Shown here piece by piece: positions 4,475-48,787 of a stretch of DNA of 64,000 nt. How positions within the stretch are numbered: the stretch's first letter is position 1; each line of letters begins with the position of its first letter. Under the pieces are notes generated by a model. The model had not been told where the DNA came from. It saw only the letters and a list, made by a program, of their open reading frames with translations, and did not search any database. The position numbers and the translations under genes were made by a program. Origin of the DNA: Botryllus schlosseri (Eukaryota); the NCBI GenBank assembly GCA_051294905.1, contig CM119373.1, forward strand, positions 6,572,001 through 6,636,000, read 5' to 3'.

Positions 4475-4665
4475 GGCGGTCAGCAATCTGATGATAATGA
4501 GATAGTCACTGTGAATATTTCTATTGAAGCGGATACCATGAGAACTGTCGTCGAGGATTTTATAGCCGAAAATCAACACCTCAAATCCCTTCAACAATTC
4601 TCTATGACATATGATCAGCATATGCCCAACAGTTTGACCCCAATTCGTATTTTTCTAAATATGGA

Positions 4666-5445: not shown

Positions 5446-5493
5446 ATAGGCCTAAGTTTTGAGTGTTTTCATTATCAAATTAATAAAATTGGT

Positions 5494-9560: not shown

Positions 9561-10577
9561 AATATGGTACACTTGATTTGAACAAAATTTTCAACCCAAA
9601 CAGAGAACACAAAAGTTTCATAACCCAAACAGAGAACACAAGTGTCCAGCTAAAACCAACGGGCGCAGGCGAACCTGGTTCGATTCTCGCCATCAGCAAT
9701 GAAGATCGAAACACCGTAACGATTGACCATTTCAACCATAGCGTTTATAAAGGCTTATGGTTCCAACATCCCCCTCATCCCCCTATATTTTGATTGTATG
9801 GCATTGTACATTAAGTATCTAGAGCAGATGGACACGTAATTAATTAAATATATCAACTACCGTAATAGTCAGCTACGGTAGTACGGTAGTTATACCTTTA
9901 CAAGGCAGTATCATAATCAACTGAATATGACATGTATGTATACAAGTTTAGGCATCGTGTCCTATATAGTTCAAGTGTTTCCCATATCTTTAATCATTAT
10001 TTGAGAGCTTATTAATAGCTTTGCGTATTAAGAATCCTATCATGGGCTATGATCCTATCCTACATTAGGCCAAAATTAGGGAAGTTGAAACCGAAACCAA
10101 CTGTTGTCAAATGTCACAATGGCAATCTCGCAGGCGGAATTCAAGCGTGATGGTATCCACAACATGCATAACAATGCTTTCAAGTGCAACAGGCCTGCTT
10201 CAATAGAGGGTAACCGTTGTCACCCAATAGAATTCCTTCAATATTACCGTCTTCAGAATCGTCAGCCAGTCAGGAATTTCGGTATAACCTGAAGTCGTGG
10301 CACGATCCCGGCCAACGGTACAACAAGATTGGTTATTGTTCGTTCCGCACTGCAAACGACTTGAACATTCAAGGACATGAATCCTCTTCTTTTACGGAAC
10401 GACTATGAGTCCTCTTCTTTTACGGAACGACTCCGCGTTATCTCCACAGGGCAGATAATGCGGATGTGGGTGCCGTCACTATCTCCAACCACCCCGGGAA
10501 ATTTTTTAATTTTATAAAATTGCGATTTAATTTTCGCGGTGTCGTTCATGGATTGCAATAAACTGAGTTATGTTTTG

Positions 10578-10892: not shown

Positions 10893-11339
10893 TTCCTTCG
10901 TTTATCAGAAAAGTGATGAATATTTCTGTTTTGCGGACGAAAACAATCGAAACTAAAGCCGTTACCTTAGCGACGGCCTTGAACAATGACGTCATTTCGA
11001 AGAAATATAATCTGGCAACCATTTTCTGGATTTTCATACAGTGAGTCGGCACTCAGTTGAGTGTGTGAGGAGGCCTCAGTTGAGTGTGTGAGGAAACTTT
11101 AGGAGCTCGAAGTTGGGTTTGAGGAACAGGTGCTACTCAGTTGAGTGACAGCAGACACTTAAGTTAAGGAAACTTCAAGATCTCCATTGTCCACCCATAG
11201 TGTGCACTGTCCAATTTTTTCCTTAATATGGATAAGCAGTTCGACGCAATGAATTCGGAATTCCATTCCAGGGATCAAAATTCAAACCTGATCGTCATCC
11301 ATTCTATTCCTCAGATGACGACCGTTTACATTGGTTCGA

Positions 11340-12261
11340 TGCGTCCGGTGCGAAATTCCTCTTCATAACGCGTTTCTTTATCGACGACTTCACGAATATA
11401 TCTACCATCCGGCTCACCAATGTACATATCAGAACGGTCCATTACGCACTGATTCCTTTTATACTTTACGTCCCTACTTAGCGACACGCATTTTTTTGCG
11501 TTTCGAGCAAGTCTGCGTTTTCGTCTCCGTGACGTCCGCTCGGGCAAGTCTGGACCTGTCTAAACCTGCTCGACCCACTCTCGTTTTAAAATTCTCTCGT
11601 TTCGGTGGGTCAAAGTATATTAACATAAATAAACAAGAATTTTCATATTGGTGAATTCCCCTAAGCTACACCATGCGCTTCTACACTTGCTAATGTTTTA
11701 AACTCTACGGTTATCTCTCGTGATCTTGGTATATCTCGACAGTCATCGTTGTTTTTCCTGTCCAGTTCGGCCATGTTTGAGTACATATAGATAGCCCGCT
11801 GTAGTAGTTCTGACTCCTCCATTTTGGCCAGTCTTTTACATGCATCCAAGGGCTCCCTTCACTATCTTGAAGTAATTGATTTGCGTCTTCTGCGCTGTCC
11901 ACTACCGATATGCTCTTTTCTAGCTTCATCTCATGTTTTCGGGACGTTGATCCATAACCAAACGACTTTTTCGTCCCTCCTTCTTGTTCTAGTATGAACA
12001 GTTCTGGCTCTTCCGTTGCCCCAATATTGTCATTCGACGATACTACTTGTAGATACGTCTCAGTAACAGTGTCTTTCGTGCATCCCGTAAGTGGCGTAGA
12101 TTTGTCCTTATCTGTCCATTCGTTTAGCCACAACATTGGTGGCCCGTTATTTCCCGTAAATTCTCCATCCGTAGATGTTTCCGAATTCGTCATGTGACCT
12201 TCCTCATTGTATGTATATTTTGTGCTTGCTTTTTTCGGCCTCGGCACGAATGCGTACGGGT
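11340..12261 (-). mobile_element. Virus-like element copy A (divergent lineage), distal part: capsid-like C-terminus, intergenic block and start of the basic ORF
   Basis: Translation aligns to copy B with 150/174 identical residues by hand (PYAF...TMTV). A 2-nt frameshift lies near 11735. 'MDRSDMYIGEPDGRYIREVVDKETRYEEEF' matches the copy B ORF at 24503. Confidence 0.9.
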
Positions 12262-15200
12262 CAAGGCCCGAACTACTGCTATCTCCGGCTAAGCAAATTC
12301 GCGTGATTCCCATGCGCAGATGCATTGTGGGTAGGTACACGGTTAAGTGATTTACTACATGGGCTTATGGAAAAGCGGTCAGTTTTTAAATATATTTGAT
12401 TCGTATCGGGTCCGTAGTATTTTATGCGTATAGAGCTTTGAATGACTAATTATTCTAACACTCAGGATTTGTTTCAGCCTAATATCTCGTGTCAGTATAT
12501 TGATATTATGTGTAATTCGACCTGTCGAAGATAGCCCATTCATCAGGTGGTAGTGGTAGTCTTTGCTGTGTCGGGGTTGGTGCAGTAAATGGCCGAAGAA
12601 GATATCCAATGAGTCGTATGCAAGAAGTATTTGTGACGGCAGTTGTGATGAAGAGTCGATAGTAAAGCGTCGATACCCCAGAACTTTTTACCGGTAAGTG
12701 AATAACAGAATAAGCATAGCAGCAAGACATGTATGTCCAGATCTGCCACAGTTGTAATAAATAGGTCATGGTAAAGTGATAGCAGAACATTTCGTTGCCG
12801 CTAAATGAATGAAATGACCAGACCAGACTACCAGCAGAAATCCGTGTCAACATATCAGCTATGTAATGTTCATCATCAATATCTGTAATATTCTGTAATA
12901 ATGCCAATCTCACTCTTCGTATTTCGGCCAATAATCTGCTTAGTATTTAATTCTGGCTTATGCTATGTAGGCATGATGAGCAGGACTACAGGGAAAAGAT
13001 ACAATTCATGACCAATGGGTTTTCTTCAACATAGCTAAAAAAGGATATCTTTTTCAGATGATAAACAAATACTGTGGAATTTGCAAATTCCATCGTCGAG
13101 TTCATCTACAAATTCCATCGTCGAGTTCATCTACATAGTCCTCATAGTGTTGTTCGAAACTGTCAATTTATTTATTCAGACACATTTTTCAAGGTTTACC
13201 TTTGAACTGCTTTAGCTTTAGAAGGCTGCCTCAATCTTGAATACAATAGCCTATGGAGTGAAAAGTGACAGATAATTTTATCAGACAAGATATCACAGCT
13301 CATAACAAAGAATTGTATTTCGTGTGCTTTGCTTCATACAATGCTCCGTATAATGCAGCATTCCTACTAATGAATCGCTGAAAGGAAGATGGTTAGAAAA
13401 CATTAAAAGAAAAAACTGGGTTCCATCAAGATCGTCAGTCATCTACTCCGATCATTTTCCGGTAAGTGCCATTTACCGTGTGGGCCAGTTGATACGTTTC
13501 AGGGAGAATGCGGTGCCAACGAGATTTCTGAACTCTCCGAAATATACGAGGTCAAAGGTACAGTAGGCATCTATAAATTTACTTCTAAAGTTTGCCTTTG
13601 TTGATGTGAAATTCTTGAATTTTAGGCTTCCAACAAACGGCAAGCGAGACTAGCAACACTTCAAGATAAGAAACGTCATTGTAAAGCACAAACCGGTGAA
13701 GCAGTTGTCCATGACCACAGTTACTGTGCACGTACCTCTCCTCAAAAGCTCATTCAACAGCAACGCCGTAGAGTGGTACAAATTAAAAAGAGGTTGCATG
13801 CTGCCAAAATGCGGACAGGCCACCTGAGAAAAAAAGTGAAAACTCTATATGAGGTCATTGCATCTCTAAAAAAAAAATGATCAGCGATTTGTATGGAGAA
13901 GTAATGTCACAAAAATTCTGTCTTCTACCAAGTGAGCTGTTGCAGCGCATGAAGCTACAAGCTGGTGGAAGAGGAGTCAAATACTCTAAAGAACTGCAAT
14001 CATTTGCAATGACGCTGCAGTATTATTCTGCTGAACTGCAATCATTTCCAATGACGCTGCAGTATTATTCTGCTATTTTGTGCGTCAAAATTTTCAACTC
14101 GCTCTTCCCCATCCGAGTGTGATAAGAAGCTAGTATGGAAAACTTCCTGCTGAGCCTGGCTTTACTGGTATTGCATTTTCTGCTACAAGAGGAAAAGTAG
14201 AGGCATCAACAACTCCCGCAGTGGGGTGGCCTTCCACGTCACTGTGCCGCGACAAAAAAGGAGGTCTATTAAATTGCAAATGCGATCAGAATGGGTTAGT
14301 TTATTGTACCAAGATCTCAGATATTAAGCCCTAACTTATCCCACATTTTACTTTCAGTTCACCCGCAATTACGTCGAGGGCGACGTCAAGTCAATAACAA
14401 TTTAATTTATTTCTGTTTTTATTTTTTTATGTTGTTATTTTAATAGAAAAATCATTCAAACCTCGCGTTTCTCATTCAAACCTCGCGTTTCTCATAACTG
14501 AAGCTGGTGTTACTGAAAACGAAAGTTTTGGTACGAGACAGTACAGCGCGGTATTTCCTGTGATCCCAGAAATGGTTGATCGAAAGTCAGGTTGGAATGC
14601 TGCGTCTATTAGGGAAGGAAGGGATCAGGTAGGCAGCAACCGCGTGATCCCAGAAATGGTTCATCAGAAAACGCACTAGGTAGAAATGCTTCATCTAGCA
14701 GGCAAGGAAAGGATCATAGGCAGCCACTACGTGATGCCTGGCTGATCTGATATATTGACCTTGCTTTCCGTCGCATGCCATATTTTTTTGTCGCTTGATC
14801 TTATATGGTATCTTAGTTAGAACTATTAGTTTTCATCCAGCGTACCCTGTAAATGCCTCCTCTTTACTTTGCCTAGGCCCAGGTGGGTGTAGATTACCTC
14901 AGGCCGTTGCGTTACCTTGCTATCTTTTCATCGATGATTAATCTGATTAAGTCAATTTCAGTGAGCACTAGGCAATTCTACCCTGATCTGAATATGGACT
15001 CGTGCATTCATCTTGTAATTCTTGTTTCTCTCATTCGATGATATAAATATAATATTTCTATCATTTGATTACCTCTGCAGAAATCGCTAACCCATATTGC
15101 TACACATAACTCACATATCCTCACTTCAACTTTCTAGGATTTATTTGGACCAATTTGACACAATGAATAAGTAGAATAAAAATTAGATCGTATAAATTTG

Positions 15201-16011
15201 ATTGTAGTTGTGCTTTTGCGATGTCACATGATGCTGAATTTTCCTCCGTCAGTGGTATTCATAGCCACTACGTAGCTGGCAGCAATAGCATTGACATCAG
15301 CGCCATTGTAGTGAGAAGATTTCGAATCGAATCCAGGGCGATTCTGAGGCAGTCTCTGGTAGTAACTTGAAGCTGGTGGTCATAGCCATAGATGCTTTTA
15401 CTACCGTACCTATAGATACAGTGCCTGAAAGATAACAACAAAACTGACATGCAATGCAATCAGTTGATAGCTTGGTTAATTATTTACACTTGAAATGTGC
15501 CTGTTTGTTGTTTTCAAGATTTGTAATAGTAAATTGTTTGTTGTTTTTCAAGATTTGTAATAGTAAATTACAGTGTGTGCTTGTATCAACAATTCGAGGA
15601 CGCAGTACATGAAACTGAAGCTATAATGCGTAAGAAGACAACATCAGCAAGCTCCATTAGGATTAATGGCATCATATCTAAATCAAATTGCCATACACAG
15701 TAGCCTACCTGAAACTGAAGCTGTATAGGGATAAAGAAGACAACATCACCAAGCTCCCCGAGTTTAGCAATCTACATCAGGAAGATATTTGCAAATGAAT
15801 ACATACGGTGACACATATATAACCTTATCTTGTCCGAACCATCGAAATTAATACCTCCAGGCCAAGGAGTAATCAAAACAGTCACATCACCCATCCACTT
15901 TTGCCTTGACTACCAGCTTAACGCGCAGCTATCAACTTAACCCAAAGATGGCGGCCAATGGATCACGCAAATATCGCGAGTAGCGCACTCCAGTGTTTAT
16001 ATAGCTCAGTG
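12262..16011 (+). mobile_element. P-element-like insertion (THAP9-type remnant) splitting virus-like copy A
   Basis: 8-bp TSD gtacgggt at 12254-12261 and 16012-16019; the viral frame H-P-Y-A-F is restored on removal. CA...TG ends. THAP remnant 'WLENIKRKNWVPSRSSVIYSDHF...NAVPT', a DHSY motif, and 'YSKELQSFAMTLQYYS' at ~13300-14150. Confidence 0.85.
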
Positions 16012-16660
16012 GTACGGGTGCCTTAGTGTTGTCCGATAATCCTTTATCCTAAAGTAGCGGTACATTTTTAACGGATTGAATCCTCTTTCAGAGTCCCACG
16101 GCCAAACTCATTTTCTTTTTTTTGTTCTTGAACGCGCTCGACGTTGATCCCGTTTCGACTGGTAATGCGAAACATTCTTCACGGATACCACTTTCTCTGA
16201 AGTGACCGTCACCATATGTGTCCAGCTGTCCACCCACTCGTGATCGATCTGGTTAGGCGCCGTTGTGGTTCCCGTTTCTTTTTTCGTGCAAAACTTTGCG
16301 ACCTCATTGATTTTTATTCTGTACTCTGCTGTTTCCGTTCCCTTCCAGAGAAACCCTGCCACTGTATGAACTCCCGTGCCCCCAGCGCCGCCTCCGGAGC
16401 TCCGCACAGTTGGCTCGCTCCCAGCAAAGCCCCCCATCTTGCCAATCGTGCTGTCCGCCGCCATGGTGACCCTTTTTCCTTCGCTATCCGGTGTAATTCT
16501 TTTTGGCTCGGTCTCTCCGGTCTCTGGTGTAGCCCCTTGTTTAGTAGGCCTCCCGCGCTTTCGTTCGCCACTTGTTCCAGTTCTGGACTGTGAAACGCTA
16601 CTGTCGCTAGGAATATTCTCTCCTCGCCACTTGTTCCTGCTCCTTCAGTTGCTTCTTTTT
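16012..16660 (-). mobile_element. Virus-like element copy A, proximal part (Gly-rich start of the capsid-like domain and overprinted ORF)
   Basis: 'MAADSTIGKMGGFAGSEPTVRSSGGGAGGTGVHTVAGFLWKGTETAEYRIKINEV' is homologous to copy B 23229 onward. Frameshift from a short tggaca duplication near 16225. Upstream boundary approximate. Confidence 0.9.
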
Positions 16661-16814
16661 TTCTTTTTTTTTTCTTTTTGAAGCTCAGTTGTTGCCAATA
16701 GACATGCCATTATCCTCTTGGGATCAGGCTAGTTTGGTTCTCGGTTCGCTCGGATATACACCTGTTTCAGCAGGTTGTTGTCTGGTCTGTCAGTTTTCAT
16801 CATTGCTTCCCCAT

Positions 16815-19800
16815 AACATACACATATATATACACATACACATATTACAACATATATACACATACATGCGCACATATCCATACTTACATACATATAATGG
16901 CCTCTTTATGGTTTCATGGGCCCGCTACATACTCATATGCACGGAGGGGAGGATGCTGCGCATTTACGCTAGTACAGTCAGGAGTCTATCTAAAATCATT
17001 GGAAGTTGGCCTTTTAGGCGGAGTCTTGATCTCGCCGTGTTCATGACACGTTTGGTTGTGGAGTTTATGTACACGGTTATGTCGCTTTCCATTTCATTTT
17101 CCACTTCCAATATAATTCGGTTTTGTATTACTGTTTCTTTGTATATGGTCACGAGGAGTTTCGTTGCGAGATTGTTCTTGTCCCAGTTCTTTTCTTCAAG
17201 GAGTGTTCCGCTTAGGGATGCCCTAGCTCCCGTCGCTTGTCTCAGGGATGTTTCTAGTCGATCAAGTATCTGACGAGCAATTGGGCATGTATACAGGATG
17301 TGGTCTAGTGTCTCTTTTTTACATCCACATTGTCTGCATGATGTTATAGCAGGTTTTCCAGTTTTATGTCCTAGTATAGTCTTTTGTTTTCTCTTCCAGC
17401 CGAATAGGTATCCGTCGCAGGCGATACGGTATGTTGTAACTCTTTCTTTGTTTTTGATCAGGCCGGATACGTATCTGTTTTCATTGCAAGTGATTTCCAA
17501 TTGATTTCATTGTTTCCTTGTTGGTCTGTATTCCCATGTATATTTTTGATTTCATTGTATATGTCTTTTAGTGACGCTGTTTGCCAGTCTTCTTGTTCCC
17601 AATTTAGCTTTTCGGCAATGCTTATATTCATTTTCCATTGGTTTGATAGAAGTGTGCGGTGTGGCATGCTATTTGTAAAGAGTGGGTCGTTCTATTTCCT
17701 GATCGTGGGCCCAAGCTCGTATAGGGCGTGGAAGTGCCTATACTCCGTTGGATGTTCTATTCTCGACAGTTTTGATATTTTTTCCAGCTCACATGCCTTG
17801 GCCTGGCTTTGGGGGTGTAGGATGTTCATTCCGCCTTCTTCTGGTTTGTTGTTCTTCTGATTATCTCTATTTTTTCAGGATGCCAAAGATATCTGAAAAT
17901 CGTTCTCATGAGGCGTGCTGTAAATTCTGGCGTGGGAGGTATGGTCCTTGCATGTAGGGTTATAATTGAGGAAGCGAAGGAGTTTATTACGTTCTTTTTT
18001 CCCATCCACGTGAGCTGACGGTGGGAGTTGCTCATTAGCTTTCCTTCGATTTTCTTTATGACGCCCTCCCATGTTTCGTTTACCTGATCGTGTCCAAAGT
18101 GCTGTCCTAGTATCTTGATGCTTTTAACGAAGTTTCCTTTGAATTTTTGTTCTCTTATGTGGTCTAACGCAGGGGTCGCCAACTCAAAATAGGTCGCGGG
18201 CCACTTTTCCAAATTCCTGGAGGCCGCGGGCCGCATGACATCAATATCGATATAAAAGTAGGCAACGCAGTTCAACAACCACGTCTGATAACTCTACGGT
18301 ATTACAACGCTGTGCTTTCTAACATAGGCGACGGTTATAGTCACCACAGAAAAACTAATATTTTATTGAACAAACACAAATACAACAAAAAGTATCATGA
18401 TCATCAATGTCATTATATTTTGGACTATGAGCTGTACACGATACCTGACAATGACAACACTCTTTAGCCGCTAAAACAGGGGTGGCCAACATTTTTGTAA
18501 TTCACGGCCGCATTTCGCGTACTCATGTAGCCTGCGGCCGCATACCGGTGGTTAGTCGTGATACACTAGCTGGGGCCAAATACCCACGTTACCATGTCCA
18601 TGTCCATTGCCGGTACACTCCGAACTAATCTATATGCACATATCGGCTTACTATGCGCACCAAATCGTTAGTAGTTATGTTGTAAAGAGCCACAGAGAAC
18701 CAATCTGTAGTCGCGCGAAGCGCGAAAAATTTTTCATGTTCATGAGTGAATTTCGTCAATAAATATTAGTATAGTTTCACATATTACTATAAAATATTTA
18801 TCCTTTATCGGCCAATGTGTTCAGATCCCCAGATACAGCTGATATGCAGGGGGTATCTGCGAAAACTTAGGGTTGTTATTACAAGTGTCGACAGCCGCAT
18901 AATTTTCCTTCTACTGCTGCAGATTGGCCACCCATGGATTGAAGAATCAATATTGGGGTTAGCTATACACGGTAGGCCTACTTGCTAGACAACTATCTCC
19001 TCGTAAAGCATGGTTTTTGGAGCGCCCGAAGTCGTTTTGCAGGCGTCTCGGTCTTGGCAGTGGTGGGCCATTGCACGTCAAGGCAATATGTCCATTCGTA
19101 CCAGCAAATTCTTCATCCATGGAATGATATTACCATGCCGAAGCCGTATCAACTAGTGAGTAATAGTGATAGTGGGCACATAGAATGGCTCACTTTGAAA
19201 AACAACAACATTATGTTTCAACTGCAATCAATTTTAGCGTTTCAACATGATTTACTAAGCGTTTTTCTGCATTTTTTTCAAATCAGGTCGCGGGCCGCAA
19301 AATAGGACCTCGCGGGCCGCATGCGGCCCGCGGGCCGCGTGTTGGAGACCCCTGGTCTAACGTGTTCCCGATGCACAGGATCTGAGTTTTTTCTTTGTTT
19401 ATTTTTTGCCCTGTGGCTTTTTCGAGGTATTCAAATTCTTCGTACGCTCTCTCGATCGACTCCAGCTTTGTCGTGATGATAGTGAGGTCATCGGCGTATT
19501 GCTGTGTCTTCATATTGTGTTTGCCAATTTTACATCCTGTTATGTTTTTGTTCCCCAAAATTTTGATCATCAGGGGTTCCGCTGTCAGGGTGTAGAGATA
19601 CATCGATAGTGGACATCCTTGTCTCAGCCCTCTTTGGATGGGGATTTTGTCTGTGATGAATCCGTTTATCCAGATGCAGCTTGTGGCATTGTCATATAGT
19701 TTTTTAATCAATTTTATTGTTTTGGTTCCGAAATTGAATTTTTCCAATATTTGGAATATTTTTCTAATATTAGGAATATATATGGGTGAGGGACACGGTC

Positions 19801-22029
19801 AAAGGCCTTTTCCTGGTCAAAGTTTGCTATGATGATTGGCTGTTTCTTTTCTTTCTGGTATTCCATTACCGATTTTATATTCCGTAGTAGATCTGACATT
19901 TGCTTCGATGGGACAGCGCATTTTTGTTGGGGGGATATTAGATGGTCAATATTTTCTTTCATTCTGTTCGTTACGATTTTCATCATGATCTTATAGTCGA
20001 CATTTGTCAGGGAGATAGGTCTCCAATTCTTCAGCATCTCGGGATCTCCCTTTTTGAATATGAGGTTCACTGTTGAATCCGTCCATGTATTGGGCATGCT
20101 GTTTAGGAGTAGAGCGTTGTTGTATAGTTGGACTAATTCATCCTTAATAAGGTAGTAGAAGGTAGAGTAGAACTCTGACGATAGGCCGTCTGGCCCGGGG
20201 GACTTAAGTCTTTTTTTGTTGCTCGATTGCATATTTTATTTCCTCTTCTAGGATTGGCAGGTCTTGTTGCTCATGCTGTTCTTTACTTAGGAGTTCCACT
20301 AGGTTTTTTTGCATCTTGGCATTTGTGTTTTCATTCATTTGCCAAAGTTCTTGGTAGAAGGAGTAGACTTCTTGTATTATTTCTTCTTTGTTTTCTGTTA
20401 TGGTCCCGGATCGTTTTTGTACTCGGGCGATTGATTTCCGTTGTTGCTTTGTTTTTAGTTTTTCAAAGAATTCACGGTTTGGCTTCTCGTCCTCTTCTAG
20501 CTCTTCCCTGTATAGCAGTTTCATTTGGTGGTGTAGTTTGTCTTTTTCCATTTTCTTCAGGTTTTTTAGGATGGTTTTTCTCTCATTTGAGGGCAGGTTC
20601 TTTGATGCGAGTTGTTGATGGAGTGTGTTCTCTTTTTCTTTTTGTTTTCGTTTTTCCTCTATCCCGAAAGAGATGGCAGTTTTTTTATTTATTTTTGTTT
20701 TAAAATCATCCCACCACTGTGCGTGGTTGGGGTATTCTACTTTCCTCAGTGCGGCTTCTTCATATTTTGATTCCAGTATTTTCCTGAATTGTTTCTTAGC
20801 ATAGTGGGTTGTATTATTTTTCCAGTTGCCGCCACCCCATTTCTCCGGGTCTTTTGGCTTTACGATGATTCTGAGGTAGTAGTTGTGGTCTGATATTCCG
20901 TTTATATGATGCTTGACTGATGTCCTCGAGCGGGCTATTTCTTGAGTGGTATAGACCCTATCTATTCTCCTTGAGTTGAGATTGTTTGCATTTGTATACA
21001 ATCTTGTAAATGGATAGTGCCATCTGTATAGGTCTATGATGTTTTTCTGCATTGTATATTCCTTCCAGATTTTTGCTGCTTCAGATAGTTTGAAGGCGTG
21101 ATGTTTTTCGCTATCTTCTTTGGCCGTAATCATATTAAAGTCCCCCGCTATAATCATATTTCCATGGTACAGTTGAAGGTTATGCGTTACTTCCTTGTAG
21201 GAGGTCTTTTTTCTTTGTTATTGGTTGGCGCATATATATTTACTATGGTTAGTCTGACCTCGTTGTTGGCGCTGAGGCTTAGGGTCTGGACCCTGTCTGG
21301 CACAATGATTTGGTGGTCAAGGGTATAGTCTCTCACTTTTTCTTTTTTTATAAGAATGGTGGTTCCCTTGTAGTAGTGTTTGTCTCCGGCCTGGTGTGGT
21401 TCTGAATTGAAGTTTTTGTAGTATGGGAGATCGTTATTATTAGCCCATAGTCTAAATTTCCTTTCATGTAGGCGGTGGACTTCTTGGACGCAGTATAAGT
21501 CCGCTTTTGAGCTCGTCACGAAGTGTCTGAATTCGTCCCAGCGTCTCTGTATACCATTTACATTTATGGAGATTAGGTTACATCCAAGAACTCCCGTTTG
21601 TTGATTTGTTTCTTCTGGAGGTTGGGTAGGGGTTTGGCCTTCCATTTCAAGGTAAAAAAGGGGTTTGCGTTGCTTTCTTCTTTTATTTCGTATGTTTTGA
21701 TTTTTTTCTCATCTATTTTTTTGTATTTTTTTTTTTTGTCATTTTTTCCTTCCTCGGGGCTGCTGTGGTAGGCTCTCTTTGGCCTTGGGGTATTTTTGTT
21801 TTTTTTTTTGTTCTAATGGGATGGGGTTGCAATCCAGATGCTTGAAAATCTCGACTTGGAGGGGTTCCGATTCCGTTTTATGTACACTTGATACTCTTTT
21901 CCCTCTATTTCTGTTTCTTGGGGGGATTTTGGGGGGTTCCGAGGAGTCAGATGGTTCAGGATCATGCATTTTTGAGGGGGTTTTGTTTTCTGCTGAGCCC
22001 TCTGGGTTTAATTAAGTCTTCCTGATTGG
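16815..22029 (-). mobile_element. L1/Tx1-clade LINE, 5'-truncated within ORF1, ORF2 frameshifted
   Basis: APE endonuclease 'LISINVNGI...YCVQEVH', 'IIAGDFN', 'RRIDRVY'; RT 'KSPGPDGL', 'NWRPISLTNVDYK', 'DQEKAFDRV', 'GLRQGCPLS', 'QYADD'; C-terminal 'CRQCGCKKETLDHILYTC'; (TATG)-like 3' tail at ~16815-16895. Confidence 0.95.
18170..19354. mobile_element. Non-autonomous hAT element inserted in LINE ORF2
   Basis: TIRs caggggtcgccaac / gttggagacccctg. 8-bp TSD gtctaacg at 18162-18169 and 19355-19362. LINE frame (GNTLD|HIREQ) rejoins on removal. Confidence 0.95.
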
Positions 22030-24290
22030 AAGGATGGAGATCGAGAGGGGCAAAATTAAGAGCGGAGGCGGAGGCAGCAAGAATAGAAAGAGAGAAAGGA
22101 TGGACACACGCATTCGCAACAGCGAGAAGGAGAGAATACGATGCAATACATACACCAGTGAGGGATCATCTTGGAATACCAGGAATGCAACATTTCCTGG
22201 AAGCATTGGGATTAATAGGCGAAACGAACATAGATAATGTAAAAGAAGCAACATACAAATGGGCAAAGTCAAAAATCGAAGAACTGAAAACAGCACTGGG
22301 AGAAGACACAATGGTGGGACAACTAGTGGACGAAATGTTTGTAGTGGATAGTACAGGACAGTCCGACTGGCATGACCTAGAAAATTACAGACAATCAATC
22401 ATGGACATAGTAAATCCAGAAAGATCAGCAGAAGAAAGAAACGAACTAAATCAAGAAGAGTTAGGAGAAGGAGTAACAGAAACGAATAAATATGGGACAG
22501 GAATAACAGAAGAGATCGAGAATGAAGAAGAATACATATACAGTGATGAATCAGATACAGAATTAGACCAAGAAGAGCTGGGAGCGGGAGTAACTGAAAA
22601 TGACCCAGAGGGAATAACAGATGAGATAGAAGAAAGAGAAATAGAAGAATTCGAAGAATACTGTGACATGAGATTATCGGAAGTGGAAAGTGAGAATAGA
22701 TATGCACAGCAGTGGGCGCAATACGAAACGGCAGTAGAGGAAGCATTCAACAGATTTCAACAAAGACGTCATGAACAAAGGGGAACACCAATAATGCAAT
22801 GGCAAATACCGGGCACGAGAAGGAGATGGGAAGGGTTAGGAAGAGCATTGAGAGTGGCGATACCTAGGAAACGTAATAGAAGGGGGTGGATAAAGGACAG
22901 ACCAGGGTATTGGATGAGAAAAGACGGGAAAATAGAAAAAAGAAAAAGGCGACTGCCTCTAGAATGTATAAATATCGCGAACGAGCGGAGAGCTGCCAAA
23001 AGAGCGAGAGATGCAGCAGGAGAAGGAGCAACAACAGAAGGAGAGCCAACAGAAAAAGCCGGAAGAGTTGAGAGCAGCGTACCTAGCGACACTGGTACTA
23101 CACAGCCCAGTACTGGAGGAAATAGCGAACGAAAGCGCGGGCGGGATTCTGAGTCAGAACGTGGGGAAGAGACCGGAGAGACTATCCCAAAAAGAGTTAC
23201 ACAAGAGAGCAAAGAAAGAAGGGTCGGAATGGAGGCGGACAGCTCGGCTAGCAAAATGGGGGTTGCTTTTGGGGGCGAGCCAAGTGTTAGGAGCTCCGGA
23301 GGTAGCGGAGGCGGCGCTGGTGGGAGCGGTGGCGCTGGGGGCACAGGAGTGCATACGGTGGCGGGATTCTTGTGGAAGGGAACAGAAACCGCCGAATATA
23401 GAATAAAGATAAATGAAGTGGTGAAATTTAAAACAAAAAAAGAAATAGGAACAACTGCAGCGGGAAATCAGATCGACCACACATGGGTGGACACGTATGG
23501 AGACGGACATTTTAGGGAGAGCGGAATAAGAAAAGAATGTTTCGCACTACCAGCAGAAACGGGAAGCACAGCAAGTGCGTTCAAAAATAAAAAGAGAAAA
23601 AGGGTTTGGCCATGGGATACCGCGAGGGGATTCAATCCACTGAAGATGTATAGGTACTTCAGGATAAAGGATTACCGAACAACATTAATGCATCCATATG
23701 CCTTCACACCAAGACCGAAAAAAATGACAACGTCATATGTATACAACGAAGAAGGGCATCTACAAAGCTCAGTGACCAATACAGACGGAGAATTTACAGG
23801 AAATAATGGGCCACCAATGATGTGGCTAAATGAATGGACGGATAAGGACAAGTCAACGCCATTGACAGGATGTACAAAGGACACTGTAATAGAAACATAC
23901 TTACCTGTAGAGAGTACAAACGACACAATTGCAGCGACAGAAGAACCAGAATTATTCATACTGGAGCAAGAAGGTGGAACAAAAAAAGCATTTGGATACG
24001 GGTCATGCTCTAGAAAACATGAAATGAAACTAGAGAAATCAATCTCGGTAGTGGACAGTTCAGAAGACGCAAATCAACTACTTCAGGACAGCGAAGGAAG
24101 CCCGTGGATGCATGTTACAGACTGGCCAAAGTGGAGAAGCCAAAACTATTACAGCGGACTAAGCGTGTGTACTCAAACATGGCCGAATTGGACAGGACTA
24201 TCAACCATGACGGTCGACATACCAAGATCGCGCGAAATAACTGTAGAGTTTAAAACTCTAGCTAGCGCGGAATCGCATGGTGTCGCATAA
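22030..24290 (+). CDS. Distal ~753 codons of the 905-aa large ORF; C-terminal 353 aa (from ATG 23229) is a probable single jelly-roll capsid domain
   Basis: Uninterrupted frame. Acidic tract, then Arg/Lys-rich tract and RKRGR, then a Gly-rich stretch, then a beta-rich region with 'MYRYFRIKDY' and terminal 'ITVEFK', reminiscent of ssDNA-virus capsid strands. Capsid identity is by resemblance only. Confidence 0.6.
23011..23406 (+). CDS. Overprinted 131-aa ORF in an alternative frame of the large ORF
   Basis: Homologous open frame in divergent copy A (16314-16571 and upstream) with a stop at the equivalent position (NIE* vs STE*). Identical in copy C (40957-41352). Confidence 0.65.
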   Translation: MQQEKEQQQKESQQKKPEELRAAYLATLVLHSPVLEEIANESAGGILSQNVGKRPERLSQKELHKRAKKEGSEWRRTARLAKWGLLLGASQVLGAPEVAEAALVGAVALGAQECIRWRDSCGREQKPPNIE

Positions 24291-24332
24291 GGGGAATTCC
24301 CTAATTGTATATATTTATTGCATTGTTACGTT

Positions 24333-24338
24333 AATAAA
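24333..24338 (+). promoter_or_regulatory. Candidate polyadenylation signal of the large ORF
   Basis: AATAAA 43 nt after the stop codon. Not retained in copy A. Confidence 0.45.
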
Positions 24339-24392
24339 GGTTGACCCACTCAGACGAGAAAGTTTTTTTCCTTGGGTGGGCCAGGGCAGGTT

Positions 24393-24449
24393 CAGACTTG
24401 CCCGAGCGGACGTCACAGAGACGAAAACGCGGACTTACTCGAAACGCAA
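24393..24449 (+). promoter_or_regulatory. Conserved non-coding cis-element of the virus-like unit
   Basis: 54/57 nt identical to copy A 11496-11552 (reverse complement). Contains GACGTCA and two GACTT(G/A)C(C/T)CGA repeats. A TATA-like tataataa follows at ~24482. Confidence 0.75.
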
Positions 24450-24502
24450 TTTTATAGTGTCGTTTAAGTAAGGATGCAGACTATAATAAGGCTCATTTGG
24501 AT

Positions 24503-24841
24503 ATGGACGGGTCTGACTTGTATATTGGCGAACCCTGTGGAAGAATTATAAGAGAGATTGTGGATTACGAAAGTAGATATGAAGAGGAATTTAGCTGCCG
24601 ACGAGAGTTCGAATGCATCAAGGACGAGCGTGCCTCAAAGTTACTCAAGCGATTCAAAGAGATTGCGAATAGACGAAGAAGAGAGGTCCGTGAAGGGGGC
24701 AGGAGATGGAGAAAATTCAGAGCGTGGCACGATCGCTACCTTCGGGCGACCCTGACGCGGCCCTATCGGGCCGCAAGGGTCAGGGGTCGCAACGCTCTCT
24801 TAGCCTATTTTGGCTTCGATCGCGTTACTAGCACACCCTAG
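24503..24841 (+). CDS. ~112-aa basic protein of the virus-like unit
   Basis: The first ~30 residues and the start Met are conserved in copy A. Arg-rich C-terminal half. Function unknown. Confidence 0.65.
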   Translation: MDGSDLYIGEPCGRIIREIVDYESRYEEEFSCRREFECIKDERASKLLKRFKEIANRRRREVREGGRRWRKFRAWHDRYLRATLTRPYRAARVRGRNALLAYFGFDRVTSTP

Positions 24842-24916
24842 GGTAAGAAGGTGTCCTTACCCTAGGGTGTGCTAGTTGACCCACCCAAAAAAAAACATTC
24901 CGAGCTGGGTGGGTCA
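24746..24916. repeat. Cluster of three stem-loops (candidate origin or fused termini)
   Basis: GC-rich bulged hairpin 24746-24790; perfect 21-bp stem 24827-24847/24856-24876 with 8-nt loop; 11-bp stem 24877-24887/24906-24916. Confidence 0.9.
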
Positions 24917-24923
24917 GGAAGGA

Positions 24924-24931
24924 TATAAATA
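24924..24931 (+). promoter_or_regulatory. TATA box candidate
   Basis: TATAAATA immediately after the hairpin cluster, 28 nt upstream of ATG 24959 (A at -3). Confidence 0.6.
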
Positions 24932-24958
24932 GAGGCTGAGTGGCGAAAGTGATTCAAA

Positions 24959-25201
24959 ATGAGCACGTACGAGGAGCTGAGCGGATTGGTGAAAGACTGG
25001 AAGCACACGGAACAACTGAAGTGGAGCTATCTAATCAAAGAAGTACTGAACCTGATATTGTTGATAGCGATTGTGGGACTGCTAAGTATAGTTCACTACA
25101 ACGTGACAAGAATTCAAGGAGCGGAAAGACTGAGAAGATTCGCAGACGTAACAGGAGGGCCACCAAGATACGAAGAAACGACAACAACTTTTGAAGCATA
25201 A
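24959..25201 (+). CDS. 80-aa predicted single-pass membrane protein with PPxY motif
   Basis: Hydrophobic 'VLNLILLIAIVGLLSIV' and C-terminal 'PPRY'. Its stop overlaps the next ATG (TAATG, 25199-25203). Present only in copy B. Confidence 0.6.
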   Translation: MSTYEELSGLVKDWKHTEQLKWSYLIKEVLNLILLIAIVGLLSIVHYNVTRIQGAERLRRFADVTGGPPRYEETTTTFEA

Positions 25202-25669
25202 TGACAAAGGCGTTAGCTGTATTGAACAATGTACGGAAGAATGTGAAGAAAATAAATAAACTGAGATCTGCATATACGGAAAATCCAATCTCAAAAGCAG
25301 CAAGAGGGTACCAGAAATTGAAAAAGATAGAGAATGGGGTGGCAAATATTAAAAAAACATACAAAAATCCAATACGAAGAATATACGCAAAATGGGAAAG
25401 AGTGACAGCGAAATTAAATGAGTGGGAACAGGGATACAAAGGAGTGCAAATGGGCATAAGCATTTTCCAATCAGCAACAGGGGCGTTAGTGGAAGATATA
25501 AACAACGGGATTGATTATCCAAGAGCTGTGACAGCAGTGATACAAAGAAGTCTGGAAAATTGGGACAGAGATAAATTAGAAGAAGGATTAAGGATATTAA
25601 AAGTACCAAGAGGAGAAATTGGGAGAATAGGAACGCACTTGCAGAACAACGTGTTCCAAGGATGGAGAT
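25201..25669 (+). CDS. N-terminal ~156 codons of the 905-aa large ORF (continues at 22042 in the circular form)
   Basis: Ends ...NNVFQGWR, and copy C shows ...NNVFQGWRSRGAK contiguous. The ORF-track tail beyond 25669 is flank read-through. Confidence 0.8.
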
Positions 25670-27289
25670 GGACCAAGAATATGGTCAAGCTAGCAATTCG
25701 GCTTTTGAATGGTGTTGTGGAATCAGTATCTTCCAGAGTCCTAACACAAGATGTTCTGGAAGCAGCATTTGGATCTTGGGTAACTTCAGTTGACATTCAT
25801 TAATATTATTCACGAATGTTAAAAGTTAACAGCGGTCTTCGATGAGATACAGCAGGAATCCAGATATTAGCCAAGTCAGTTACTCAGTAAATGCCTTAGG
25901 CCAGCGTTTATGCCAGCGTAAGGCTATAAAGAGAGGGAAAGGTGCCAATACAACATAAGCCTATGTTGATCAAAATTCTTGGACAAAAGTCGGCTAGGAA
26001 CCCATGACCAAGAAAAGATGCAGCAAATGAAGCGAATGTAGTTTCTGGTAGTGTTAGTATGGTAGTTTTTTTCGCCCTGTGGCAAATGCTGCCTATCCGC
26101 ATTCCACATTGAGATTCCCTACCTAAAAAAGGAAAAAAATGCGTTTGTCGAAACCTTGACGTGGTGCATTGGCTGTCTACTAATGTCACTGGCAGAGGTC
26201 TTCCAAGCGAATTCCAGGGTATTTTTGGCAATGACAACGAGTTCCATTCAAGTGCGATTTTGCATACTTACAAGGAGTAAGCTCTGACTATTGTGAACCG
26301 AGATCAAGCAGAACATTGACATTACACAAGGCTCTGGTTCTAGTCATACTCAAGTTTCTGTGGTTATCGGACAGGCACACAAGACTACAAGACTGTTGCG
26401 ATATTATTTGTTATATTCATAGTCGAATTTCTGCAGTTAATATAGGATATATTTTCAATCAAAGCTATTGTGAACTGCATATCGATATAGTTCAAGATCT
26501 TTCCACTTGTTCACTTTGTAGTACTCTTCAGTCGTCCTTTCCATGAATTCATCTCACAATAGCCAATGTACACGAACCAGATATTCTATTTACCTTCTGT
26601 CATTATATTTATATATGTAGCAAACTCGATAAAGGATCAAAGCCACAATATCACATCAATCTCGTGAGAAATGTAACATAGGCTACACGGTAATATTCAC
26701 TAGTCATAACCACTCGCCACCGCTACCTAAATGTTGAACTGTCCAACTAAATCCGACGCAGCTTCAAGAAATACATGACGAATCGCCTTGAACGCCATAG
26801 AAACAAGCGCTGAGCGATCCTGTTTTGGGTGCAGCCATCTGACCGTGACCATTCTGCCGGCTAACAATGGGAGAACAATCGAGTCGTCACTCCAGTCATA
26901 CTGTATAGTGCAACAATGATGATAGGTAGGCCACACGTATAATATTCACTCGCGACCCCAACTCGCGACAATCTCACTTTCTCACTAAAACGAGAGGGTA
27001 CGTCATCGCGAAATGAGAAAAAATAGATCAAGCATGAGTGCGTCCGGCAGGGGTCGCAATTTACAGCGTACGCTAGCTCGAAAATGAAAATGTGCGATCT
27101 TTCGTAAAGCTTCAGAGTCGCGAACGCTGCGTTTTATACATCTTCAACACATTCGAAAAGATGCTACAGCTACGGCATACGAGATATGTTGGCCGGGCAG
27201 ATGGCACGTTGGGCGTTGAAAGCAGGAATGCGAAGCTTGCATTGCTCTGGGTAGCAGTAAAAAGGAAGCACAGGCGGAGGACTAGGCAC

Positions 27290-39701: not shown

Positions 39702-42700
39702 GTAGCGATCGTGCCACGCTCTGAATTTTCTCCATCTCCTGCCCCCTTCACGGACCTCTCTTCTTCGTCTATTCGCAATCTATTCCAATCAGCAACAGGG
39801 GCGTTAGTGGAAGATATAAACAACGGGATTGATTATCCAAGAGCTGTGACAGCAGTGATACAAAGAAGTCTGGAAAATTGGGACAGAGATAAATTAGAAG
39901 AAGGATTAAGGATATTAAAAGTACCAAGAGGAGAAATTGGGAGAATAGGAACGCACTTGCAGAACAACGTGTTCCAAGGATGGAGATCGAGAGGGGCAAA
40001 ATTAAGAGCGGAGGCGGAGGCAGCAAGAATAGAAAGAGAGAAAGGATGGACACACGCATTCGCAACAGCGAGAAGGAGAGAATACGATGCAATACATACA
40101 CCAGTGAGGGATCATCTTGGAATACCAGGAATGCAACATTTCCTGGAAGCATTGGGATTAATAGGCGAAACGAACATAGATAATGTAAAAGAAGCAACAT
40201 ACAAATGGGCAAAGTCAAAAATCGAAGAACTGAAAACAGCACTGGGAGAAGACACAATGGTGGGACAACTAGTGGACGAAATGTTTGTAGTGGATAGTAC
40301 AGGACAGTCCGACTGGCATGACCTAGAAAATTACAGACAATCAATCATGGACATAGTAAATCCAGAAAGATCAGCAGAAGAAAGAAACGAACTAAATCAA
40401 GAAGAGTTAGGAGAAGGAGTAACAGAAACGAATAAATATGGGACAGGAATAACAGAAGAGATCGAGAATGAAGAAGAATACATATACAGTGATGAATCAG
40501 ATACAGAATTAGACCAAGAAGAGCTGGGAGCGGGAGTAACTGAAAATGACCCAGAGGGAATAACAGATGAGATAGAAGAAAGAGAAATAGAAGAATTCGA
40601 AGAATACTGTGACATGAGATTATCGGAAGTGGAAAGTGAGAATAGATATGCACAGCAGTGGGCGCAATACGAAACGGCAGTAGAGGAAGCATTCAACAGA
40701 TTTCAACAAAGACGTCATGAACAAAGGGGAACACCAATAATGCAATGGCAAATACCGGGCACGAGAAGGAGATGGGAAGGGTTAGGAAGAGCATTGAGAG
40801 TGGCGATACCTAGGAAACGTAATAGAAGGGGGTGGATAAAGGACAGACCAGGGTATTGGATGAGAAAAGACGGGAAAATAGAAAAAAGAAAAAGGCGACT
40901 GCCTCTAGAATGTATAAATATCGCGAACGAGCGGAGAGCTGCCAAAAGAGCGAGAGATGCAGCAGGAGAAGGAGCAACAACAGAAGGAGAGCCAACAGAA
41001 AAAGCCGGAAGAGTTGAGAGCAGCGTACCTAGCGACACTGGTACTACACAGCCCAGTACTGGAGGAAATAGCGAACGAAAGCGCGGGCGGGATTCTGAGT
41101 CAGAACGTGGGGAAGAGACCGGAGAGACTATCCCAAAAAGAGTTACACAAGAGAGCAAAGAAAGAAGGGTCGGAATGGAGGCGGACAGCTCGGCTAGCAA
41201 AATGGGGGTTGCTTTTGGGGGCGAGCCAAGTGTTAGGAGCTCCGGAGGTAGCGGAGGCGGCGCTGGTGGGAGCGGTGGCGCTGGGGGCACAGGAGTGCAT
41301 ACGGTGGCGGGATTCTTGTGGAAGGGAACAGAAACCGCCGAATATAGAATAAAGATAAATGAAGTGGTGAAATTTAAAACAAAAAAAGAAATAGGAACAA
41401 CTGCAGCGGGAAATCAGATCGACCACACATGGGTGGACACGTATGGAGACGGACATTTTAGGGAGAGCGGAATAAGAAAAGAATGTTTCGCACTACCAGC
41501 AGAAACGGGAAGCACAGCAAGTGCGTTCAAAAATAAAAAGAGAAAAAGGGTTTGGCCATGGGATACCGCGAGGGGATTCAATCCACTGAAGATGTATAGG
41601 TACTTCAGGATAAAGGATTACCGAACAACATTAAGGCATCCATATGCCTTCACACCAAGACCGAAAAAAATGACAACGTCATATGTATACAACGAAGAAG
41701 GGCATCTACAAAGCTCAGTGACCAATACAGACGGAGAATTTACAGGAAATAATGGGCCACCAATGATGTGGCTAAATGAATGGAAGGATAAGGACAAGTC
41801 AACGCCATTGACAGGATGTACAAAGGACACTGTAATAGAAACATACTTACCTGTAGAGAGTACAAACGACACAATTGCAGCGACAGAAGAACCAGAATTA
41901 TTCATACTGGAGCAAGAAGGTGGAACAAAAAAAGCATTTGGATACGGGTCATGCTCTAGAAAACATGAAATGAAACTAGAGAAATCAATCTCGGTAGTGG
42001 ACAGTTCAGAAGACGCAAATCAACTACTTCAGGACAGCGAAGGAAGCCCGTGGATGCATGTTACAGACTGGCCAAAGTGGAGAAGCCAAAACTATTACAG
42101 CGGACTAAGCGTGTGTACTCAAACATGGCCGAATTGGACAGGACTATCAACCATGACGGTCGACATACCAAGATCGCGCGAAATAACTGTAGAGTTTAAA
42201 ACTCTAGCTAGCGCGGAATCGCATGGTGTCGCATAAGGGGAATTCCCTAATTGTATATATTTATTGCATTGTTACGTTAATAAAGGTTGACCCACTCAGA
42301 CGAGAAAGTTTTTTTCCTTGGGTGGGCCAGGGCAGGTTCAGACTTGCCCGAGCGGACGTCACAGAGACGAAAACGCGGACTTACTCGAAACGCAATTTTA
42401 TAGTGTCGTTTAAGTAAGGATGCAGACTATAATAAGGCTCATTTGGATATGGACGGGTCTGACTTGTATATTGGCGAACCCTGTGGAAGAATTATAAGAG
42501 AGATTGTGGATTACGAAAGTAGATATGAAGAGGAATTTAGCTGCCGACGAGAGTTCGAATGCATCAAGGACGAGCGTGCCTCAAAGTTACTCAAGCGATT
42601 CAAAGAGATTGCGAATAGACGAAGAAGAGAGGTCCGTGAAGGGGGCAGGAGATGGAGAAAATTCAGAGCGTGGCACGATCGCTACCTTCGGGCGACCCTG

Positions 42701-42750
42701 ACGCGGCCCTATCGGGCCGCAAGGGTCAGGGGTCGCAACGCTCTCTTAGC
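39702..42750 (+). mobile_element. Virus-like element copy C: 2,968 nt of the circle plus an 80-bp inverted fragment
   Basis: 39783-39975 = copy B 25465-25657; 39976-42750 = copy B 22030-24804; 39702-39781 = reverse complement of 42606-42685. Confidence 0.92.
39783..42236 (+). CDS. Large ORF of copy C, N-terminally truncated, capsid-like domain intact
   Basis: Uninterrupted frame across the permutation junction. Differs from copy B at two residues visible in the ORF track (M/R, T/K). Confidence 0.75.
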   Translation, partial: FQSATGALVEDINNGIDYPRAVTAVIQRSLENWDRDKLEEGLRILKVPRGEIGRIGTHLQNNVFQGWRSRGAKLRAEAEAARIEREKGWTHAFATARRREYDAIHTPVRDHLGIPGMQHFLEALGLIGETNIDNVKEATYKWAKSKIEELKTALGEDTMVGQLVDEMFVVDSTGQSDWHDLENYRQSIMDIVNPERSAEERNELNQEELGEGVTETNKYGTGITEEIENEEEYIYSDESDTELDQEELGAGVTENDPEGITDEIEEREIEEFEEYCDMRLSEVESENRYAQQWAQYETAVEEAFNRFQQRRHEQRGTPIMQWQIPGTRRRWEGLGRALRVAIPRKRNRRGWIKDRPGYWMRKDGKIEKRKRRLPLECINIANERRAAKRARDAAGEGATTEGEPTEKAGRVESSVPSDTGTTQPSTGGNSERKRGRDSESERGEETGETIPKRVTQESKERRVGMEADSSASKMGVAFGGEPSVRSSGGSGGGAGGSGGAGGTGVHTVAGFLWKGTETAEYRIKINEVVKFKTKKEIGTTAAGNQIDHTWVDTYGDGHFRESGIRKECFALPAETGSTASAFKNKKRKRVWPWDTARGFNPLKMYRYFRIKDYRTTLRHPYAFTPRPKKMTTSYVYNEEGHLQSSVTNTDGEFTGNNGPPMMWLNEWKDKDKSTPLTGCTKDTVIETYLPVESTNDTIAATEEPELFILEQEGGTKKAFGYGSCSRKHEMKLEKSISVVDSSEDANQLLQDSEGSPWMHVTDWPKWRSQNYYSGLSVCTQTWPNWTGLSTMTVDIPRSREITVEFKTLASAESHGVA

Positions 42751-48754: not shown

Positions 48755-48787
48755 CCCGAAGCTTTTCGAACTGACACTTTTCAAGGG
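48755..48787 (-). ncRNA. Minimal type I hammerhead ribozyme (C3U/G8A variant), element-sense copy
   Basis: ccc-UUGAAAA-GUGUCAGUUC-GAAA-AGCU-UC-ggg on the minus strand. Confidence 0.65.

What the first reader, a model, noticed from the sequence alone, without database searches (positions are those of the whole stretch)
11340..16660. Copy A: an older, divergent lineage showing purifying selection before integration
Seen: long identical peptide runs encoded by different codons (e.g. YGDGHFRESGIR as tatggtgacggtcacttcagagaaagtggtatccgt vs tatggagacggacattttagggagagcggaataaga). Post-integration decay includes two frameshifts and a 3.75-kb P-like insertion with an 8-bp TSD. Inference: at least two distinct species or strains of this agent reached the germ line at different times, implying a long-standing exogenous or episomal family rather than a one-off.
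Basis: partly seen in the sequence, partly recalled or inferred. Interest (0 to 1): 0.72.

Follow-up and report, generated by a model that had tools for sequence, protein, structure and literature searches.

The report
Capsid-first parvovirus-like virus fossils
Copy A is a decayed, integrated piece of a likely parvovirus-like DNA virus that matches no curated protein family, diverged from its neighbour under purifying selection and then decayed neutrally, and it is one of at least six lineages in this animal genome, four of which carry the predicted capsid gene ahead of the predicted replication gene, opposite to known parvoviruses.

Summary
Observation confirmed, with corrections. A versus B over 259 capsid codons gives pN/pS 0.11. 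Changes between genomic duplicates are neutral (6 synonymous, 19 non-synonymous), so selection acted before integration. The 3,750-bp insertion is a P element with an 8-bp TSD. A has three frameshifts and a stop, not two frameshifts. It is older than B, which interrupts a LINE that A's two duplicates keep whole. It is B's closest relative and probably not the oldest of six lineages (62-77% identity).

A 98% relative of B at C3:8.43 Mb shows the agent: hairpins, small hydrophobic ORF, jelly-roll capsid gene with a conserved +1 overlapping ORF, then an NS1-like SF3 helicase gene on the same strand, about 5.3 kb. A keeps the capsid-to-NS junction, as do three other lineages. B and C are NS-deleted, circularly permuted derivatives. 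An intact 851-aa metagenomic relative exists; no Pfam family matches. Capsid-before-NS is the reverse of Parvoviridae. Linear versus circular is unresolved. The scan earlier noted only a distant NS1-like remnant in this genome.

The parts
11331..11442 (-). Copy A: start of the NS unit (NS2-like ORF start at 11442, overlapping NS1-like start at 11366), truncated
   Evidence: tblastn 71% over 34 aa; translation; pN/pS 0.27 on 26 codons
11443..11660 (-). Copy A: capsid-to-NS intergenic region with a small hairpin motif (11613)
   Evidence: 73% to B's intergenic DNA; the same region is found in lineages E and G
11661..12261 (-). Copy A: 3' part of the predicted single jelly-roll capsid gene; frameshift near 11734
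   Evidence: 81% and 92% aa to B; fold of B's homologous region
12254..12261 (.). 8-bp target-site duplication, left copy
12262..16011 (+). Non-autonomous P-superfamily transposon (THAP 13354-13563, transposase HTH 13853-14119, CA...TG ends), multi-copy family
16012..16019 (.). 8-bp target-site duplication, right copy
16012..16650 (-). Copy A: middle of the capsid gene (Gly-rich tract, start of jelly roll); frameshifts near 16219 and 16116, stop near 16108; 5' part lost at a LINE tail
16314..16650 (-). Copy A: +1 overlapping ORF (131 aa in B, 23011-23406), start lost
   Evidence: about 51% aa to B's ORF; synonymous divergence suppressed in both frames
16655..22033 (-). LINE (endonuclease/RT) that truncates A; B sits at its other end in this window only
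   Evidence: Pfam Exo_endo_phos; duplicates compared
22030..25672 (+). Copy B: circularly permuted, NS-deleted unit of a sister lineage with short terminal redundancy
24728..24935 (+). Hairpin-rich left-end region and TATA box upstream of the capsid unit
   Evidence: folding z -4.3 and -9.4; same layout in a 68% lineage
24959..25200 (+). Small ORF (80 aa) with a hydrophobic stretch, first gene of the capsid unit
   Evidence: 51-79% aa in other lineages
39702..42750 (+). Copy C: near-identical to B (2 differences in 2,775 nt), same NS deletion junction, inverted junction piece at its start

Best explanation
Copy A is a decayed germ-line copy of a likely parvovirus-like single-stranded DNA virus: its capsid codons diverged from copy B under purifying selection, while changes between its genomic duplicates are neutral, so the selection likely acted in the free virus before integration. 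Shown: the agent spans about 5.3 kb and reads hairpins, small hydrophobic ORF, large ORF, polyA signal, NS unit, polyA signal, hairpin, all on one strand; at least six lineages are present; A entered before B. Predicted from models: the large ORF ends in a single jelly-roll capsid, and the NS unit encodes an NS1-like protein with an SF3 helicase and HUH-like motifs. Inferred: NS1 nicks and unwinds the hairpin origin (rolling-hairpin or rolling-circle replication); the +1 ORF is an accessory protein like AAP/SAT; the virus has no integrase and was captured passively by break repair, repeatedly in the same TE-rich region, sometimes as NS-deleted circles (B, C). After capture A took a P element, a LINE truncation and a stop, was duplicated twice, then gained frameshifts. 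My odds on genome form: linear, capsid-first 0.45; circular 0.35; linear NS-first, integrated as permuted circles 0.2.
For: pN/pS 0.11 for A vs B and 0.21-0.31 for five other copies (E, F, G, H, I) vs B. Duplicates A/A2 1 synonymous: 6 non-synonymous, F/G 5:13; differs from A/B at p 4e-6. Capsid: Atlas top hit densovirus/parvovirus capsid cluster 0.94 (recognition value below the reliable range); model (pLDDT 53) matches circovirus capsids Z 9.8, anellovirus 7.8, hamaparvoviruses about 6. NS1: Atlas 0.95 to an NS1 cluster; model matches papillomavirus E1 Z 12.8, AAV2 Rep40 Z 12.2, B19V NS1 Z 10.4; top named BFVD hits are parvoviral NS1 at 10-16% identity; Walker A/B, motif C and arginine-finger-like motifs. 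Capsid-to-NS intergenic DNA is kept in lineages B/D, A, E and G. Intact relative P0007: 36% over 770 columns, longest contig 5,347 nt, against a 5,346-nt span of copy D. B vs D: 5 of 5 overlap differences are silent in the +1 frame (p 6.5e-4).
Against: Both models are low in confidence (pLDDT 53 and 59), and the HUH domain did not get its own fold match (one search tests residues 230-433). Pfam and PDB sequence searches show no viral match. The DNA around P0007 could not be fetched, so its gene order and its viral, not host, origin are unproven. The decay count alone does not separate A from B (7 of 129 vs 4 of 136, p 0.37). At least five NS-only loci have no capsid gene in the stretches fetched. 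dS is near saturation, so the corrected ratio (0.03) is imprecise.
Confidence: 0.85

Rival explanations
1. Genome form: the agent is a natively circular virus with a parvovirus-type NS1, its hairpin region being a rolling-circle origin, so gene order has no left or right. This competes on form only, not on the history of copy A.
For: At C10:19.72 Mb a polyA signal runs through one long inverted repeat (z -7.9) into the TATA box and small ORF, twice head to tail. B is circularly permuted. The capsid's best fold matches are circoviruses and an anellovirus.
Against: Copy D's right end carries an inverted, not a direct, copy of the left hairpin arm. B's junction and a 68% lineage begin at about the same left point. 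Linear parvoviruses also give circles (PMC8507497, abstract). That the C10 polyA is the NS end is inferred from position; blastn did not show it.
Confidence: 0.35
2. Genome form: an ordinary-order (NS then VP) divergent parvovirus; the capsid-to-NS junction is a head-to-tail joint of circles or concatemers that were opened at an internal hairpin on integration.
For: The sequences after the two polyA signals are 88% direct repeats over 58 nt, and penstylhamaparvoviruses have direct terminal repeats (PMC11357303, passage). NS-only loci begin near the NS promoter.
Against: The junction aligns at 73-74% over 160-200 nt in four lineages and folds weakly (z -1.1), whereas the strong hairpins lie upstream of the capsid unit. 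No copy examined reads intact NS, hairpins, capsid.
Confidence: 0.2
3. The family is an endogenous capsid-bearing transposon that multiplies within the genome, and selection acted during transposition rather than in a free virus.
For: Many copies; B and D have few lesions; no close relative in IMG/VR or the JGI scan.
Against: No integrase. Copies are truncated, inverted or permuted, and B joins by microhomology. They cluster on two contigs: all 29 capsid matches are on C3 or C10. Near-identical copies are segmental duplicates with shared flanks.
Confidence: 0.08
4. Copy A was kept under selection by the host after integration (domesticated capsid).
For: A is present in three places, with long identical peptide runs.
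Against: All three carry the P element and the stop; changes between duplicates are neutral.
Confidence: 0.02

Closest known systems
Parvoviridae, nearest Hamaparvovirinae (PMC11357303, PMC6631224: passages seen)
   Same: About 5.3 kb, hairpins, SF3 NS1-like protein with an overlapping NS2-like ORF, jelly-roll capsid after a Gly-rich tract, ORF overlapping the capsid cassette, no Pfam PLA2 hit.
   Different: Capsid unit lies upstream of NS on the same strand ('all parvoviruses' have NS on the left, PMC11357303 passage); about 460-aa N-terminal extension of unknown fold in B's longer piece alone; small hydrophobic first ORF; NS1 only 10-16% identical in structural alignments; no Pfam hit.
IHHNV endogenous elements of shrimp (PMC9357335, PMC8507497: abstracts and outlines seen)
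   Same: Clustered, rearranged parvoviral copies of older and recent types in one genome; circular viral fragments.
   Different: At least six lineages at 62-77% identity, near-full-length pieces with hairpins kept, and no known extant virus.
Acheta domesticus segmented densovirus (PMC10267136: passages seen)
   Same: A 3.6-kb capsid-only unit (B) recalls its 3.3-kb segments; the two units share end motifs.
   Different: B is a deletion product: it keeps the NS start, and D continues into NS1. Capsid and NS are linked in four lineages.
Circoviridae / Anelloviridae capsids
   Same: Best fold matches of the capsid model (Z 9.8 and 7.8).
   Different: The replication protein is closer to E1/AAV Rep (Z 12.8, 12.2) than to PCV2 Rep (Z 9.0), and the structural ORF is much longer.
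P-superfamily transposons
   Same: THAP, P-transposase HTH, 8-bp TSD.
   Different: Non-autonomous; the terminal inverted repeat is little more than CA...TG.

Membership tests
Parvoviridae | NS1 with SF3 helicase | tested here: met
   Copy D: motifs, Atlas 0.95, Z 12.2 to AAV2 Rep40. Copy A keeps only its start.
Parvoviridae | HUH endonuclease domain in NS1 | tested here: inconclusive
   RAHGII and YINYM motifs; low pLDDT; domain not folded alone
Parvoviridae | Single jelly-roll capsid protein | tested here: met
   low-confidence model; best matches are circoviruses
Parvoviridae | Genome of about 4-6 kb | tested here: met
   Copy D spans 5,346 nt
Parvoviridae | Linear ssDNA with hairpins at both termini | tested here: inconclusive
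   Hairpins upstream (z -4.3, -9.4) and downstream (z -4.1); true termini not defined; C10 tandem fits a circle
Parvoviridae | NS cassette left, VP cassette right | tested here: not met
   VP upstream of NS on the same strand in four lineages; holds if the strong hairpins mark the ends
Any named parvovirus genus | NS1 above about 30% identity to members (PMC5013282 passage) | tested here: inconclusive
   10-16% to the 50 best BFVD hits, no Pfam hit; no full parvovirus sequence set was available
Parvovirus species (A vs B) | NS1 above 85% identity (PMC9896142 passage) | not testable with these tools
   A lacks NS1; D vs G and E 72%, other loci 41-56%, lowered by decay
Cressdnaviricota | CRESS-type Rep | tested here: inconclusive
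   No Pfam hit; ranks below E1, AAV Rep and large T
Cressdnaviricota | Circular ssDNA genome | not testable with these tools
   Only integrated copies are held
Segmented densovirus (AdSDV-like) | NS and VP on separate segments | tested here: not met
   Contiguous in D and G; junction DNA kept in A and E
P-superfamily transposon (insertion) | THAP plus P transposase | tested here: met
P-superfamily transposon (insertion) | 8-bp TSD | tested here: met

The most novel reading that the evidence does not exclude
These copies are the fossil record of an undescribed family-level lineage of Cossaviricota with a capsid-first (or circular) genome, a circovirus-like jelly roll behind a large N-terminal extension, an overlapping accessory gene and a highly divergent NS1. 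It has infected this animal lineage repeatedly up to very recent times, and its NS-deleted circles are captured again and again into one chromosomal region that may act as a heritable antiviral memory.
Probability: 0.45. Interest if true: 0.8.

Novelty: new variant of a known kind. Interest (0 to 1): 0.62.

Why it matters
Purifying selection in an endogenous viral element is expected and, alone, ordinary. What matters is the agent. It matches no Pfam family or solved sequence, has only six relatives among 1.84 billion representative proteins, and breaks the NS-left/VP-right layout that a 2024 review states for all parvoviruses. If true, it widens the genome plans of Cossaviricota and bears on how parvovirus-like and circovirus-like parts were combined. 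Six lineages of different decay, with duplicates as neutral clocks, give a dated infection series in one host.

Tried and rejected
Pfam on the capsid ORF, P0007, overlap ORF, small ORF and NS1: nothing above cut-off. PDB sequence searches: only Gly-linker and chance hits. Three word-based protein searches found nothing. One search covered an irrelevant length range, and could not return P0007, whose cluster is represented by a 149-aa fragment, so these blanks are weak. IMG/VR and JGI metagenome scans: no relative. Parvo_NS1 and RNA_helicase profiles missed the genome's NS1-like genes; on that blank I first read the element as a Rep-less satellite or segment, and rejected this. The first trimmed count gave pN/pS 1.08 upstream of the capsid on 72 codons; the untrimmed DNA-guided count gave 0.59 on 97 codons. 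DNA alignments give compensating indel pairs, so frameshifts were called only where they were unpaired and confirmed against duplicate A2. Four-fold base use does not separate A from B (p 0.07). Sequencing runs: 14 of 24 listed hold part of D, 6 of them half or more (3 samples, one possibly the assembly source); no RNA holder listed; none was laid, so expression, polymorphism and true ends stay open. Literature searches for a capsid-first or circular parvo-like virus and for tunicate parvoviral elements gave no fitting paper (open-access library only, no supplements read). The tree has no outgroup and leaves out copies J and K, which lack the capsid 3' half.
Full report
1. The observation. Copy A lies on the minus strand in two blocks, 11342-12244 (75% to B) and 16013-16611 (71%). 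The quoted peptide is at 16181-16216, and 10 of its 12 codons differ from B. The blocks are split by exactly 3,750 bp between two copies of an 8-bp target site. The insert has THAP (E 9e-8) and P-transposase HTH (E 2e-11) remnants. Its ends recur genome-wide at 87-96% identity (40 candidates scored each), and three other end pairs show 8-bp TSDs. It is a non-autonomous P element. A has three frameshifting indels (near 16219, 16116, 11734) and one stop (near 16108), not two frameshifts.

2. Selection and when it acted. I mapped A's natural pieces on B's open frame and counted codon pairs. In the capsid domain, 259 of 293 codons mapped: pS 0.72, pN 0.077, pN/pS 0.11 (0.07-0.15), p 4e-64. Five other copies give 0.21-0.31 against B. 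The genome supplies a control. A was duplicated to C3:8.40 Mb (A1; 2 differences in 1,461 viral nt) and C3:7.70 Mb (A2; 10 in 1,448; 34 in 3,735 in the P element). Changes between A and A2 are 1 synonymous to 6 non-synonymous, and between duplicates F and G 5 to 13. Pooled, this fits the neutral site ratio (p 0.81) and differs from A vs B (p 4e-6).

3. Order of events. The P element, the stop and the LINE that cuts A's 5' end are in all three duplicates. A's three frameshifts are absent from A2, which has its own frameshift and its own 5.8-kb insertion. B starts inside that LINE in this window only; A1 and A2 continue alike past this point. So B came after A. Residue decay alone does not show this (7 of 129 vs 4 of 136 constrained columns, p 0.37), while copy H (18 of 139, p 0.003) and E+G+I (37 of 404, p 0.015) depart more than B; greater phylogenetic distance may add to those counts. 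At an assumed 1e-8 substitutions per site per year (recalled, not measured), the A/A2 split would be about 0.4 Myr old.

4. How many lineages. The capsid query gave 29 matches, all on C3 and C10. Eleven natural stretches of the capsid 3' half fall into six groups at 62-77% identity: B/C/D, A/A1/A2, E, F/G, H, I. A is B's closest relative (77%). D differs from B by 2% with a purifying pattern (8 synonymous, 4 non-synonymous in the capsid), so they are likely separate strains captured in the same duplicated interval. Species rank cannot be set for A, which lacks NS1. D vs G and E NS1 identity is 72%, below the 85% criterion (PMC9896142, passage) but lowered by decay.

5. What the agent is. Pfam and PDB sequence searches are blank. 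The Atlas places the C-terminal 353 aa nearest densovirus/parvovirus capsids (0.94, recognition value low). The model (pLDDT 53) matches single jelly rolls: circovirus Z 9.8, anellovirus 7.8, hamaparvoviruses about 6. HMMER over 1.84 billion representatives found six relatives. One cluster holds P0007, an intact 851-aa protein, 36% identical along B's ORF and 31% to its separated 5' piece, on contigs up to 5,347 nt. Profile searches for NS1 failed. The Atlas gives NS1 at 0.95. The model matches papillomavirus E1 (Z 12.8), AAV2 Rep40 (12.2) and B19V NS1 (10.4), and parvoviral NS1 proteins in BFVD at 10-16% identity. D spans 5,346 nt. A's low-coordinate end is the capsid-to-NS junction and the first codons of both NS ORFs.

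6. Layout. The order is hairpins, TATA, 80-aa hydrophobic ORF, capsid ORF, polyA, NS unit, polyA, hairpin, on one strand. The capsid-to-NS junction is conserved at 73-74% in lineages A, E and G. Two papers state NS left and VP right for parvoviruses (PMC6631224, PMC11357303; passages). The strong hairpins (z -9.4, -4.3) lie upstream of the capsid unit; the junction folds weakly (z -1.1). B and C share a deletion joint from early NS into the left end, and B is circularly permuted, so they likely come from a defective circle or concatemer. A tandem at C10:19.72 Mb joins a polyA signal through a long inverted repeat to the small ORF; this fits a native circle or a circularised linear genome. I cannot decide between them.

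7. A hidden gene. Upstream of the capsid domain, pS between A and B falls from 0.72 to 0.33, and pN/pS is 0.57-0.59 in both the capsid frame and the +1 frame. A 131-aa +1 ORF is recognisable in A and in E, F, G, H and J, with stops in some decayed copies. All 5 B/D differences there are silent in the +1 frame and change the capsid frame (p 6.5e-4). Its place recalls the accessory ORFs that overlap parvoviral capsid cassettes (PMC6631224, passage; the names AAP/SAT are recalled); its function is untested.

8. Mechanism. Shown: selection pattern, order of A and B, layout, lineage count. Predicted: folds. Inferred: NS1-driven replication from the hairpins; passive capture by break repair (no integrase; microhomology at B's start); repeated capture in one region, like the IHHNV clusters of shrimp (PMC9357335, abstract). 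A piRNA role is untested.

9. Verdict. Copy A itself is an ordinary decayed endogenous viral element. The agent works like a parvovirus but fails the gene-order feature and matches no curated family, so I do not file it in Parvoviridae: new variant of a known kind, possibly a new family. No fitting paper was found in seven searches of an open-access library; supplements were not read and could list such sequences. Interest 0.62.

Noticed in passing
G000 C3 4.8-9.2 Mb; also C1, C5, C16 (L112, L114, L116, L118): A second NS1-like family (34-37% to D's NS1) with no capsid relative found nearby; its 15 loci on C3 4.8-9.2 Mb all lie on the minus strand, which may mark a one-strand piRNA cluster or only direct duplications.
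   Followed up: partly
L048:6480-7940 (C10:19.72 Mb): Head-to-tail tandem of an internally deleted genome of another lineage, joined through a long inverted repeat with TAACCCT repeats in its loop.
   Followed up: partly
L034:2640-2745 (right end of copy D): Three GGGTTAGG telomere-like motifs between the last hairpin and an inverted copy of the left hairpin arm; possibly NS1-binding repeats.
   Followed up: no
L110, L119, L121, L122, L125: NS-only copies; L121 runs from the NS start to just past the polyA signal, as a retro-copied NS mRNA would.
   Followed up: partly
window 1-22033 and 59657-64000 vs C3:8.39-8.44 Mb: The window is 99-99.96% identical to a second region on the same contig, with different middles that each hold B-lineage copies; a recent duplication or an uncollapsed haplotype.
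   Followed up: partly
window 24876, 24341, 11613; L130 3297, 5241: A small TGACCCAC...GTGGGTCA hairpin motif precedes each promoter and follows each polyA signal, in several lineages.
   Followed up: partly
window 50627-51133 (+): 168-aa open frame with no Pfam match.
   Followed up: partly
window 48721-50303: RT plus weak GIY-YIG frame (Penelope-like) between 190-nt inverted repeats.
   Followed up: partly
window 4615-9649, 27935-28648, 56818-57465: Further DNA-transposon remnants: P-like/THAP (weak), Harbinger-like DDE_Tnp_4, DDE_1.
   Followed up: partly
window 18170-19355: 1.2-kb element nested in the LINE, absent from duplicate A2 and repeated at C3:8.423 Mb.
   Followed up: no
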